IMG/VR virus record: IMGVR_UViG_2700989521_000010
Location: 1-11,348 of that record
DNA: 11,348 nucleotides
Direction: 5' to 3' (one strand)
From: a virus
Taxonomy: Duplodnaviria > Heunggongvirae > Uroviricota > Caudoviricetes
Below, in pieces: positions 9,001-11,348 of the stretch. Made by a program: the position numbers. How positions within the stretch are numbered: position 1 is the stretch's first letter; every line of letters begins with the position of its first letter.

Positions 9001-11348
9001 TGTTAAATCTCCAGATAGTCGCAGCACCCGTTGCGCCGCATACCCGGCCATTTTATTACCTTAAAAACCATATATGTATAGAAATATCATCAATACGAAC
9101 AGTATTACCTTTCAGGTAATTTACAAAACGTGCTGGATAGCAAACAAATTATTTGATACTGTATATTCATACAGTTATTGCATGGAGAAGATAAGATGCA
9201 GCAGTATCACTATCCACTGGAAGACGGATTTACCGAAAGGGTTCACACGCCGGGAGGCGTCAGATCACTGGTGGAGGGATCGCACTTGATGAAATTACTC
9301 CGGGATCTCGATAAAGATGGATTCAATGTCGATGGCCCACTTGCCGAACTGACTGCACTGATTAACTACGTAACCAGCTCACAGATGTCTATGCGGGATC
9401 TGCAAACACATCTCGACTATTGTGCCGAACAATTACGAAAACAAATCCGGTAAATTTAAAGGCCGCGAAAGCGGCCTGTGGCATGTCACGCTCACGTTAT
9501 GACAAACCTATGTACCCTGGCTACACCAGATAATATCAAAACAACTGCAACAGCAAATTCACCATCACCAATGATACATTTACGGTTCATAACGCCAAGT
9601 GCAACAAGCGCAAACAAAACAAGAATAAAAGCAATCATTTCTCACCCTTATTGCGGAGTGACATCCTGCGGTCGCCACCAGTATGTCTGGTTAAACTCTT
9701 TCTTCGAACGTTGCTCCATTTTACGCAAATAGCCTGGTGAAAAATACTCCTGCATCTGGTTAAAGATCATATGATCGAGAGCCGCCTTCAAGTACCAGAG
9801 ATTCGCACCTGGCATCAGCCCCTTCCCAAGCTTAACCAGATCACCACCAGTCTGCTCATTCTTCCCTTCCACAGCATTTAACGGTATGCCCTGAGCAATC
9901 TTCACTACGTCATCAACCAGACCAGCTACCGGGCCAAACATCGACGCCAGCGCGCCGCTTCCGTACCTCGTGTGATCTGACAATAAAAAGTCACCGTAAA
10001 GGCCAAGACCACCACCTTTCAGCAGAGCACCAAGCCAAAATTTAGCAGCATCTTCTCCTGTCATCTCTCGAGGATTACGACCAGACGCAAGGTCGTTAAG
10101 TTGCTGCGACAAAGCGCCAAGAATGGTCGTACTGGCAATAAACGTCGCAATATATGCCGCACGCCCACCAGCAGACGGCATACCCATAGCGCGTGACCAG
10201 TGACGCATAACCACCGAGATAGGGAACGATTTAAACAGGAAAACACTTCTCGTTAATTCACCTTTCCATGTTCCACGCTGAATACCAGAACCGGTTATCA
10301 GTTGCTCACGTGCTCCCGGTGTAATAACAGCCATATCAACTTCTTCAGTTACGGCACCGAGCAGTTTACGCATTGCCTCAAATTTCACCCGTTCAGGCTC
10401 ACCAAGATGTTTAACTGCTAAATCAGGGATACGCATAATGCTTTCCGGTGTCAGCATCGTATTATTACCGTTCCCCCAGTCCTCCTGTTGCGCCAGCTTC
10501 CATACGCTCCAGTCTGTGTCAGTAATCCCTTTGCTTTTCAGGATACGAAAATCAGAGTCATCGAGGCTACGAAGGTCTGGTGTCCGTGACACTACTTCTC
10601 CCAGGCTTCCCATCATAGTTACGCCATAGGCGCGCTTGTGCGCATCTGACCATGCTGTAAGCCCACTGGCACGCATTACCGCCGTTGCCGCCCAACGAGA
10701 CACAGACGGCCCCATATTATCCATCGCCCAGCGGTTAACGCTGCCAAGTAGAGATTCCATCGCCAGACCAGCTCGGCGCGCCCGCGCAAGCTCAGTACGG
10801 TTCGTTGGGTCCATAGCTTCAAGCTGGTTGCGGAATAACTGGTTCATTGGAAGGTTGGTAACCTTCGCAGACAGATACATGGTTCCAAGATCAGAGAACG
10901 ATGACAGCAACGCGGATCCGAGTCTGCTGGCAACCAGCCAGTTGCGGATATTGTCAGACCATCGCGCGATGTGCGGATTCGCTACAGGCTGTGTCTTTCC
11001 GGAAATAAAGTTGTACAGATTCTCTGTGTTGTTCGCCAGCCGCTCGACTTTACCGGTTTTACTCGGGTTAGCTGTTGCCGTTTCTGCCTTAACCTGATCA
11101 AGAAGGGAGCGGAAAACATGATCGGGGTTTGGACCATATGTTTCCACCAGTGCAATATCTTTACTGATACCTTCCAGGTGACCGACCATGATTTCCCATA
11201 GAGAGCGATCGCCATAAAGTTGCTGATATTGCAGATAGGAATCTGCATCTTTGAAATGTATCTGTCGTGATGCATTACCACGGTTAGTGGATTTGCCCCT
11301 ATATTTCCAGACATCTGTTATCACTTAACCCATTACAAGCCCGCTGCC

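What the first reader, a model, noticed from the sequence alone, without database searches (positions are those of the whole stretch)
9153..9453. Near-consensus LexA box controlling a small gene between the ejection-protein and tailspike genes
TACTGTATATTCATACAGTT (9157-9176) matches CTGT-N8-ACAG and overlaps a promoter-like TTGATA, directly upstream of an 85-aa ORF with a good SD. The locus sits where P22-like phages carry the immI antirepressor region. Small LexA-repressed antirepressors that trigger prophage induction are known (Gifsy-type, coliphage 186 Tum), so this is a candidate SOS-to-induction relay or an SOS-induced moron. The protein has no motif I can recognise.
Basis: partly seen in the sequence, partly recalled or inferred. 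Interest (0 to 1): 0.65.

Follow-up and report, generated by a model that had tools for sequence, protein, structure and literature searches.

The report
LexA-controlled prophage antirepressor Ant (known)

Summary
A 20-bp LexA box, TACTGTATATTCATACAGTT (9157-9176), overlaps a TTGATA -35-like hexamer. It lies 20 bp upstream of an 85-aa ORF (9196-9453, +) with a GGAG Shine-Dalgarno.

The protein is 85% identical to Ant of Salmonella phage SPC32H (PDB 5D50 chain E, E=8.5e-46). It sits in the same gene order: virion protein, small membrane protein, ant, tailspike. The element is an epsilon15-like (Uetakevirus) prophage at guaA/yfgI of E. coli, not a P22-like phage.

The box aligns column for column with the SPC32H box. 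SPC32H and its variant SPC32N differ by two bases genome-wide, and one of them changes ACAG to AAAG in that box.

The box arms are invariant in 77 of 79 related viral contigs while the spacer varies. The ORF is under purifying selection (dN/dS 0.05-0.13). A 99.5% identical prophage encodes a homologue of the SPC32H repressor Rep with no detectable autocleavage domain.

Likely mechanism, by orthology: DNA damage leads to LexA cleavage, then Ant synthesis, then removal of Rep from its operators.

Caveats: rep is outside the window, IS2 interrupts the neighbouring virion gene, and no convincing -10 was found. Novelty is low. The gene is still labelled 'hypothetical protein' in the E. coli genome rows inspected, from a search that found the locus in 529 genomes.

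The parts
9104..9120 (.). Perfect palindrome ATTACC-N5-GGTAAT, the probable operator of the prophage repressor Rep. It lies in the ant-tailspike intergenic region, 37 bp upstream of the LexA box.
   Evidence: The same motif is annotated as 'repressor' binding sites in the epsilon15 record. It recurs next to rep and in front of the operons in the sister prophage L012, in epsilon15 and in SPC32H. It is conserved in the alignment. Its role at this position (tailspike promoter, ant promoter or both) is inferred, not shown.
9153..9158 (+). -35-like hexamer TTGATA of the presumed ant promoter, overlapping the left flank of the LexA box.
   Evidence: Sequence. The recA promoter of MG1655 has the same arrangement, TTGATA followed by CTGTAT...CATACAGT. 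TTG..TA is kept in 77 of 79 viral contigs while position 4 varies. The consensus scan did not call it.
9157..9176 (.). LexA operator (SOS box) TACTGTATATTCATACAGTT.
   Evidence: It aligns with the SPC32H box. One of the two genome-wide SPC32H/SPC32N differences hits that box; the equivalent base here is C9172. The arms are invariant and the spacer variable in 77 of 79 related contigs.
9176..9181 (+). Weak candidate -10 hexamer TATTGC, 17 nt after TTGATA. The assignment is uncertain.
   Evidence: Read directly from the sequence and not called by the scan. It would place the transcription start at or beyond the conserved GGAG. TACAGT (9170-9175), inside the box, is an alternative -10.
9184..9187 (+). 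Shine-Dalgarno GGAG, 8 nt before the ATG.
   Evidence: GGAG is invariant in all 10 phages aligned.
9196..9453 (+). ant: the 85-aa antirepressor gene, orthologue of SPC32H Ant.
   Evidence: PDB 5D50_E at E=8.5e-46. 85% identity over 82 aa to the annotated SPC32H ant product. phrog_450 at E=2e-47. dN/dS 0.05-0.13.
9460..9477 (.). GC-rich hairpin AGGCCGC-TTTC-GCGGCCT between the convergent ant and membrane-protein genes. It is a terminator of the minus-strand virion operon and a possible 3' end for ant.
   Evidence: The scan calls it on the minus strand with a T tract. The equivalent stem-loop is annotated as a rho-independent terminator in epsilon15. There is no T tract on the + strand, so termination of ant here is inferred.

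Best explanation
The 85-aa ORF at 9196-9453 is the E. coli-prophage orthologue of Ant, the small antirepressor of the epsilon15-like Salmonella podophage SPC32H. Its control region carries a strong LexA operator (9157-9176), laid out as in the recA promoter, with a TTGATA -35 hexamer overlapping the left arm of the box.

Proposed mechanism:
1. In an undamaged lysogen, LexA sits on the box and keeps ant silent.
2. DNA damage activates RecA and LexA cleaves itself.
3. ant is transcribed.
4. Ant binds the prophage repressor Rep, a two-HTH protein with no detectable self-cleavage domain, and releases it from its ATTACC-N5-GGTAAT operators.
5. The lytic operons are derepressed.

Shown here: the sequence features, orthology, gene order, conservation of the box, purifying selection on the ORF, and the presence of a Rep homologue and of the operator motif in a 99.5% identical prophage.

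Inferred from the SPC32H work: LexA binding, Ant-Rep binding and induction.
For: Protein and gene order:
- 5D50 chain E 'Anti-repressor protein', E=8.5e-46.
- 85% identity to the annotated ant gene product of SPC32H.
- Same order of gp17-like virion gene, small membrane-protein gene, ant on the opposite strand, then tailspike.

LexA box:
- Single site in the window, 24.5 bits against a shuffle maximum of 18.5.
- Same alignment column as the SPC32H box.
- SPC32H and SPC32N differ at only two bases genome-wide, and one turns ACAG into AAAG in this box. This fits my recollection of Kim and Ryu 2013 (J Virol 87:11775) that a single LexA-box mutation makes Ant constitutive.
- Box arms are intact in 77 of 79 IMG/VR relatives with six different spacers, in 4 of 4 sampled E. 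coli genomes, and in Citrobacter and Erwinia prophages.
- The -35/box layout matches the recA promoter.

Coding gene: dN/dS 0.05-0.13.

Partner repressor:
- The 99.5% identical prophage in NZ_CP067426 encodes a Rep homologue (5D50_A, E=4e-42) with HTH domains only and no S24 peptidase domain.
- It also carries the operator motif next to rep and before each operon.

Literature held in the library:
- PMC9638917: tetrameric Ant binds two Rep dimers and breaks the Rep tetramer.
Against: - rep is not in the window. IS2 interrupts the adjacent virion gene at about 11288, so this copy may be defective, and its repressor was not seen.
- The Rep of the sister prophage is only 42% identical to SPC32H Rep, so Ant-Rep recognition in E. 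coli is extrapolated.
- No convincing -10 hexamer was found. The -10 expected from the TTGATA spacing would exclude the conserved GGAG from the transcript.
- The two primary SPC32H papers are not held in the library, so their details rest on my memory and on secondary citations.
- There are no experimental data for any E. coli orthologue. The one E. coli study of this phage group tested the unrelated Bro-N 'anti-repressor' instead (PMC9782041).
Confidence: 0.88

Rival explanations
1. Orphaned relic. The gene and its LexA box are intact, but in this genome the prophage is crippled: IS2 sits in the gp17-like virion gene, IS1 sits next door, and several accessory genes carry indels. SOS-induced Ant would then no longer trigger productive induction. 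At most it would act in trans on Rep-type repressors of other prophages, or cause abortive lysis.
For: The window ends are IS1 (1-~321) and IS2 (~11288-11348). Homology to the intact sister prophage covers only 322-11287. There are indels in the GDSL and acyltransferase genes relative to the sister prophage. rep was not observed.
Against: ant, its SD and the LexA box are undamaged and identical in layout to intact prophages. An IS2 insertion in one virion gene does not remove the regulatory circuit. The rest of the prophage may lie just beyond IS2.
Confidence: 0.1
2. SOS-induced moron. The protein is LexA-regulated but serves the host or the phage in a way unrelated to repressor inactivation.
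For: No Pfam or NCBIfam family covers it. RefSeq calls it hypothetical in the E. coli genome rows shown. Ant is far more conserved (85%) than Rep (42%) between the E. coli and Salmonella lineages, which could hint at another constraint.
Against: It is 85% identical to a protein crystallised in complex with Rep (5D50). Gene order and LexA box are the same. One of the two SPC32N differences lies in the box.
Confidence: 0.03
3. The palindrome is not a LexA site. It is a chance AT-rich palindrome, or the operator of a phage regulator, or it controls the divergent tailspike gene.
For: The bare CTGT-N8-ACAG motif appears in 10% of shuffled windows. A second, phage-specific palindrome lies 37 bp away. 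No -10 was found for ant.
Against: The 20-mer scores above all reference SOS boxes and above all shuffles. The arms are invariant while the spacer drifts. The layout copies the recA promoter. The box lies 156 bp from the tailspike start and 20 bp from the ant start.
Confidence: 0.02

Closest known systems
Ant/Rep lytic switch of Salmonella phage SPC32H (epsilon15-like podophage; PDB 5D50 and 5D4Z; Kim and Ryu 2013, Kim et al. 2016)
   Same: - The protein is 85% identical over 82 of 85 residues.
- Same size, same position and same orientation between the small membrane-protein gene and the tailspike gene.
- The LexA box is at the same alignment column, 20 bp before the ATG.
- The same ATTACC-N5-GGTAAT palindrome lies upstream.
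- The sister prophage has a Rep homologue without a self-cleavage domain.
   Different: - The host is E. coli.
- 12 substitutions, and one residue fewer at the N terminus.
- The -35-like hexamer is TTGATA rather than CTGTTA, and the box spacer is ATATTCAT rather than ATGTTTAT.
- The presumed partner Rep is only 42% identical.
- This copy lies in a prophage hit by IS2.
- Nothing has been tested experimentally for the E. coli version.
LexA-controlled antirepressors of Gifsy prophages (GfoA, GfhA) and Tum of coliphage 186
   Same: The logic is the same. The prophage repressor is not cleaved; instead a small LexA-repressed protein inactivates it after DNA damage (PMC7380047; PMC3121763 listed).
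   Different: I found no sequence relationship to other named antirepressor families: no Pfam family above cut-off, and only a weak 49-residue match to one PHROG labelled 'anti-repressor'. The phage lineages differ (siphovirus- and myovirus-type prophages against an epsilon15-like podovirus). From memory, Kim and Ryu describe Ant as structurally distinct from these.
immI region of phage P22 (ant, arc, mnt, sar)
   Same: An antirepressor gene lies on the opposite strand between internal virion protein genes and the tailspike gene, so the position is comparable.
   Different: From general knowledge, P22 Ant is a large protein controlled by Mnt and Arc, not by LexA, and is not needed for SOS induction. 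Here the only ORFs between 9001 and 9648 are ant and a 48-aa membrane protein, with no Arc, Mnt or large Ant. The phage backbone is Uetakevirus, not P22-like.
E. coli recA promoter
   Same: TTGATA followed directly by CTGTAT...CATACAGT: the LexA box fills the spacer after the -35 hexamer.
   Different: recA continues into a consensus TATAAT. The ant region reads ACAGTTATTGC, two bases shorter and without a good -10.

Membership tests
SPC32H-type Ant (small LexA-controlled antirepressor of epsilon15-like phages) | Full-length sequence homology to SPC32H Ant (about 86 aa, single domain) | tested here: met
   5D50_E at E=8.5e-46, covering residues 2-83 of 85. BLASTP gives 85% identity. phrog_450 at E=2e-47.
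SPC32H-type Ant (small LexA-controlled antirepressor of epsilon15-like phages) | Position in an epsilon15-like genome: divergent from the tailspike gene, convergent with the small membrane-protein gene and the gp17-like virion gene | tested here: met
   Window ORFs and PHROG hits match the SPC32H, epsilon15 and PAS61 annotation.
SPC32H-type Ant (small LexA-controlled antirepressor of epsilon15-like phages) | LexA box overlapping the ant promoter region | tested here: met
   Box at 9157-9176, scoring 24.5 bits, at the same column as the SPC32H box. One of the two SPC32H/SPC32N differences lies in that box. The promoter itself is only partly recognisable.
SPC32H-type Ant (small LexA-controlled antirepressor of epsilon15-like phages) | Cognate Rep in the same element: two HTH domains, no RecA-dependent self-cleavage domain | tested here: inconclusive
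   rep lies outside the window and IS2 cuts the window at about 11288. The 99.5% identical prophage has a Rep homologue (5D50_A at E=4e-42, HTH_3 only, no S24 peptidase), which is 42% identical to SPC32H Rep.
SPC32H-type Ant (small LexA-controlled antirepressor of epsilon15-like phages) | LexA binds the box and ant is SOS-inducible | not testable with these tools
   This needs an EMSA or footprint, and transcript measurements in lexA+ and lexA(Ind-) strains.
SPC32H-type Ant (small LexA-controlled antirepressor of epsilon15-like phages) | Ant binds Rep and releases it from operator DNA, and the prophage is induced | not testable with these tools
   Known for SPC32H only (PMC9638917; 5D50). Here it is inferred by orthology.
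Tum / Gifsy-type antirepressors | Sequence homology to Tum, GfoA or GfhA | tested here: not met
   The Pfam scan at E<=0.01 gave only a sub-threshold DUF724 hit. NCBIfam gave none. The PHROG hits are phrog_450 and phrog_15539 (unknown function) and a weak C-terminal match to phrog_1760 'anti-repressor'. I made no direct pairwise comparison with the Tum sequence.
P22 immI | Large Ant together with Arc and Mnt regulators next to the tailspike gene | tested here: not met
   Only an 85-aa and a 48-aa ORF lie between 9001 and 9648. Neither matches Arc, Mnt, Bro-N or ANT families.

The most novel reading that the evidence does not exclude
Ant may be a broadly cross-reactive, trans-acting SOS relay rather than a private partner of one repressor.

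- It is 85% identical between the E. coli and Salmonella lineages, whereas the Rep proteins are only 42% identical.
- It is retained intact, with a perfect LexA box, in an IS-disrupted prophage.

It could therefore induce other Rep-type prophages in the same cell. In addition, the Rep-operator palindrome 37 bp upstream of the LexA box could make the ant-tailspike intergenic region a two-input node, controlled by both LexA and Rep, with positive feedback.
Probability: 0.15. Interest if true: 0.4.

Novelty: already known. Interest (0 to 1): 0.14.

Why it matters
It adds little to basic knowledge. The LexA-Ant-Rep switch of epsilon15-like podophages has been described genetically and structurally.

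The practical value is for annotation. The same locus occurs in 529 of 5426 complete E. coli genomes, and every row inspected labels it 'hypothetical protein'. No Pfam or NCBIfam model covers it. Phage records annotate it inconsistently, as 126 aa in PAS61 and 54 aa in Tyrion.

A published study of a close E. coli relative, vB_EcoP_ZX5, tested a Bro-N protein as 'the' anti-repressor and did not discuss this gene in the passages I read. Naming this gene correctly would point work on induction of phiV10-type prophages, including those in O157 and other STEC strains, at the right trigger.

Tried and rejected
- **Family searches.** Pfam and NCBIfam scans of the 85-aa protein gave no family above cut-off. 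Only the PDB sequence search and PHROGs identified it.
- **Primary papers.** Kim and Ryu 2013 (PMC3807360), Kim et al. 2016 (PMC4983836) and the epsilon15 genome paper (PMC2698709) are not held. I used secondary citations and compared the deposited SPC32H and SPC32N genomes directly instead. A search for 'SPC32N' found nothing useful.
- **Promoter assignment.**
  - The consensus scan did not call TTGATA.
  - I considered -10 = TATTGC (17-nt spacer; it would put the start beyond the conserved GGAG).
  - I considered TACAGT inside the box (a good -10 shape, but no -35 at 16-18 nt).
  - I considered TATATT in the box spacer (no -35).
  - I considered the upstream TTAAAA-18-TATCAT at 9061-9090 (not conserved in Salmonella phages).
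  - None is convincing, so the transcription start stays open.
- **P22-like / immI reading.** Rejected on taxonomy and gene content.
- **LexA box serving the tailspike gene.** Rejected on distance and on the SPC32H precedent.
- **Searches not run.** I did not run the large protein-database searches or a structure prediction, because 85% identity to a solved structure settles the identity.

Full report
**1. The observation**

- TTGATA at 9153-9158.
- TACTGTATATTCATACAGTT at 9157-9176.
- GGAG at 9184-9187.
- ATG at 9196, with the stop codon ending at 9453. This gives an 85-aa product, MQQYHYPLEDGFTERVHTPGG...LRKQIR.

CTGT-N8-ACAG occurs once in the 11.3-kb window. By itself that is weak evidence: 0.12 are expected, and 20 of 200 shuffles contain one.

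The full 20-mer is much stronger:
- It matches the consensus at 17 of 20 positions.
- On a position matrix built from 20 chromosomal E. coli SOS boxes (a list I recalled from memory, so approximate) it scores 24.5 bits.
- That is higher than every box in the set and higher than the best site in any of 200 shuffled windows (18.5). The runner-up in the real window scores 13.6.

The consensus promoter scan does not call a promoter here, because no acceptable -10 follows TTGATA.

**2. What the element is**

The region matches epsilon15-like podophages (genus Uetakevirus) at 93-94% nucleotide identity: PAS61, phiV10, TL-2011b and the O157 typing phages. It is not P22-like.

The window is a prophage end in E. 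coli:
- The Rz-like spanin gene (1412-1894) is followed by the host gene yfgI.
- A 99.5% identical prophage of about 39.5 kb lies between guaA and yfgI in E. coli O22:H8 strain 154.

Gene order around the finding, all on the minus strand except ant:
- gp17-like virion structural gene (9648-~11287; phrog_684).
- 48-aa membrane-protein gene (9492-9638; phrog_7892).
- ant (9196-9453, plus strand).
- tailspike (6752-9001).

**3. Identity of the protein**

- A sequence search of the PDB gives one hit: 5D50 chain E, 'Anti-repressor protein', 86 aa, E=8.5e-46.
- tblastn against phage records finds 35 records. Among them, SPC32H and SPC32N annotate the orthologue as 'ant: anti-repressor protein'.
- BLASTP identity to the SPC32H product is 85% over 82 residues.
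- SPC32H has the same gene order: SPC32H_018 hypothetical protein (2475 bp), SPC32H_019 integral membrane protein, ant on the opposite strand, then tsp.
- Pfam and NCBIfam have no model for the protein.
- The ORF is under strong purifying selection: dN/dS is 0.05-0.13 against orthologues from phiV10, SPC32H, epsilon15, Tyrion and a Klebsiella phage, with synonymous sites near saturation.

**4. The LexA box is orthologous to the SPC32H box**

In an alignment of the tailspike-ant intergenic region from ten phages, TACTGT-N8-ACAGT sits at the same columns in the E. coli, Salmonella and Enterobacter phages. It is followed by the invariant GGAG and the ATG.

The deposited SPC32H and SPC32N genomes differ at exactly two positions genome-wide:
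- One is in codon 5 of the tailspike gene.
- The other turns ACAG into AAAG in the right arm of this box. The equivalent base in the window is C9172. The change costs about 7 bits in my matrix.

This agrees with my recollection of Kim and Ryu 2013 (J Virol 87:11775):
- Rep is not cleaved during the SOS response.
- Rep is inactivated by the small Ant.
- ant is repressed by LexA.
- A single-base change in the LexA site makes Ant constitutive in SPC32N.

I could not open that paper. A held review says the same in general terms and cites it (PMC7380047). Another held paper summarises the structural model: tetrameric Ant binds two Rep dimers and breaks the DNA-binding tetramer (PMC9638917).

**5. 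Wider conservation of the box**

- Among 79 IMG/VR contigs encoding close relatives, 77 keep TACTGT...ACAGTT exactly, while the 8-bp spacer takes six different forms and position 4 of the -35-like hexamer varies. The two exceptions are one point mutant (CTGC) and one rearrangement.
- Four E. coli genomes sampled across the identity range all keep the box, including one in which ant itself is truncated.
- Citrobacter braakii, C. werkmanii and 'Ca. Erwinia dacicola' prophages keep a perfect box.
- The Klebsiella and Superficieibacter versions have ATGT in the left arm and score lower.

These sequences are related, so the counts are not independent events. Even so, invariant arms with a drifting spacer are the pattern expected of selection on LexA contacts.

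**6. Promoter**

TTGATA followed directly by CTGTAT...CATACAGT is the layout of the E. coli recA promoter, which I read from MG1655. recA then continues into TATAAT, whereas the ant region reads ACAGTTATTGC.

- The hexamer at the canonical 17-nt spacing, TATTGC, is weak. It would also put the start site at or beyond the conserved GGAG.
- TACAGT inside the box has a better -10 shape but lacks a -35 at the right distance.

I therefore regard 'the LexA box overlaps the ant promoter' as likely but not resolved at base level.

**7. The partner repressor and its operators**

rep is not in the window. In the 99.5% identical prophage, a 194-aa HTH protein matches SPC32H Rep over its full length (5D50_A, E=4e-42). 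It has HTH_3 but no S24 peptidase domain. It is only 42% identical to SPC32H Rep.

The palindrome ATTACC-N5-GGTAAT is annotated as a repressor site in the epsilon15 record. It recurs next to rep and ahead of the early, packaging, head, tailspike and lysis operons in epsilon15, SPC32H and the sister prophage.

In the window there are two copies:
- A perfect copy at 9104-9120, 37 bp upstream of the LexA box.
- A one-mismatch copy at 3312-3328, upstream of the holin-like gene.

That these are Rep operators is the annotators' prediction plus my inference from their distribution. It is not an experimental result available to me.

**8. Mechanism proposed**

LexA on 9157-9176 keeps ant off. After DNA damage, LexA cleavage allows Ant synthesis. 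Ant sequesters Rep and frees the ATTACC-N5-GGTAAT operators, switching on the lytic operons, which probably include the divergent tailspike operon next door.

- Shown here: sequence features, orthology, gene order, conservation and selection.
- Inferred: each biochemical step for the E. coli proteins.

**9. Caveats specific to this copy**

- The first ~321 bases of the window are an IS1 end inserted in host yfgH. The last ~60 bases are an IS2 end inserted in the gp17-like virion gene. Homology to the intact sister prophage spans only 322-11287.
- The accessory region between the lysis genes and the tailspike gene carries indels relative to the sister prophage.
- This prophage may therefore be unable to make virions, and I could not see whether its rep is intact.

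**10. Comparison with what is known, and verdict**

By sequence, position and control element, this is a member of the SPC32H Ant family. It works like the Gifsy and Tum antirepressors but is not related to them by any sequence test I ran. It resembles P22 immI only in map position.

Nothing categorically new is present.

The residual points of interest are practical:
- The locus is in about 10% of complete E. coli genomes, unnamed in every row inspected.
- It is annotated inconsistently in phage records.
- It was not discussed, in the passages I read, by a study of an E. coli relative that tested a Bro-N protein as the anti-repressor.

There is also one small biological oddity: Ant is conserved much more strongly than Rep.

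Noticed in passing
window 1-321 and 11288-11348: Both window ends are insertion sequences. An IS1 end (inverted repeat read on the minus strand at 321->299) interrupts host yfgH. An IS2 end interrupts the gp17-like virion gene, which is 2475 bp in the intact sister prophage. This copy of the prophage is probably defective for virion production.
   Followed up: yes
window 9104-9120 and 3312-3328; L012, L010, L019 genome-wide: The palindrome ATTACC-N5-GGTAAT recurs next to rep and in front of nearly every operon of epsilon15-like phages. 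It is annotated 'repressor' in the epsilon15 record. One perfect copy lies between ant and the tailspike gene, so the intergenic region may take input from both LexA and Rep.
   Followed up: partly
window 9196-9453 versus L012:7267-7851 and SPC32H rep: Ant is 85% identical between the E. coli and Salmonella lineages, but the Rep proteins are only 42% identical, while the operator motif is the same. Possible explanations are mosaic exchange of the early region, or a conserved Ant-binding surface that allows cross-reactivity.
   Followed up: partly
L001 (PAS61) 6075-6455; L005 (Tyrion) 1591-1755; 529 E. coli genomes: Annotation of ant orthologues is inconsistent. PAS61 calls a 126-aa CDS from an upstream ATG that a 1-nt indel puts in frame, so it would read through the Rep site and the LexA box. 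Tyrion calls only 54 aa. RefSeq E. coli genomes say 'hypothetical protein' in all rows shown. Only SPC32H, SPC32N, 65FD and 66FD name it anti-repressor.
   Followed up: partly
L004 (phiV10) 2071-2655; L005 2073-2777; L009 2070-2759: In phiV10, Tyrion, ZX5 and some Klebsiella phages, a Bro-N 'anti-repressor' gene is inserted downstream of the small ant on the same strand. It is absent from this window, from SPC32H and from PAS61. The ZX5 study (PMC9782041) tested that Bro-N protein as the anti-repressor and, in the passages I read, did not discuss the small Ant orthologue.
   Followed up: partly
L007, L008, L009, L016, L017 (Klebsiella and Superficieibacter), just upstream of ant: These lineages carry a variant box, ATATGT-N8-ACAGT (left arm ATGT instead of CTGT, with one extra base after TTGATA). 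It scores about 9 bits lower. This could mean weaker LexA control, or a shifted site.
   Followed up: no
window 3546-3977, 4268-5218, 5530-6413: The accessory region between the lysis genes and the tailspike gene holds an intact Acyl_transf_3 gene (4268-5218, -), a second acyltransferase split into three ORFs (5530-5790, 5775-5984, 6042-6413, +) and a shortened GDSL esterase ORF. Relative to the 99.5% identical prophage there is an 11-bp deletion at 3957 and 1-nt indels at 4183, 5378 and 5762.
   Followed up: partly
window 6554-6568: There is a 15-bp insertion of a G-rich pentamer run (GGGAG GGGGA GGGGA) relative to the sister prophage, about 190 bp downstream of the tailspike stop. It is a possible slippage-prone tract.
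   Followed up: no
window 6752-9001 (tailspike), residues 288-440: The tailspike has a conserved epsilon15-type N-terminal adaptor (residues 1-~230, many PHROG hits) and a sub-threshold GDSL-lipase-like segment (Pfam E=6.6e-4). This suggests an esterase-type receptor-destroying domain rather than a glycosidase.
   Followed up: no
window 308-637: PHROGs labels this ORF 'DNA methyltransferase' (phrog_1277), but it is the 3' part of host yfgH (a glycine-zipper 2TM protein in RefSeq). The PHROG family name is probably an artefact of prophage-boundary calls.
   Followed up: partly
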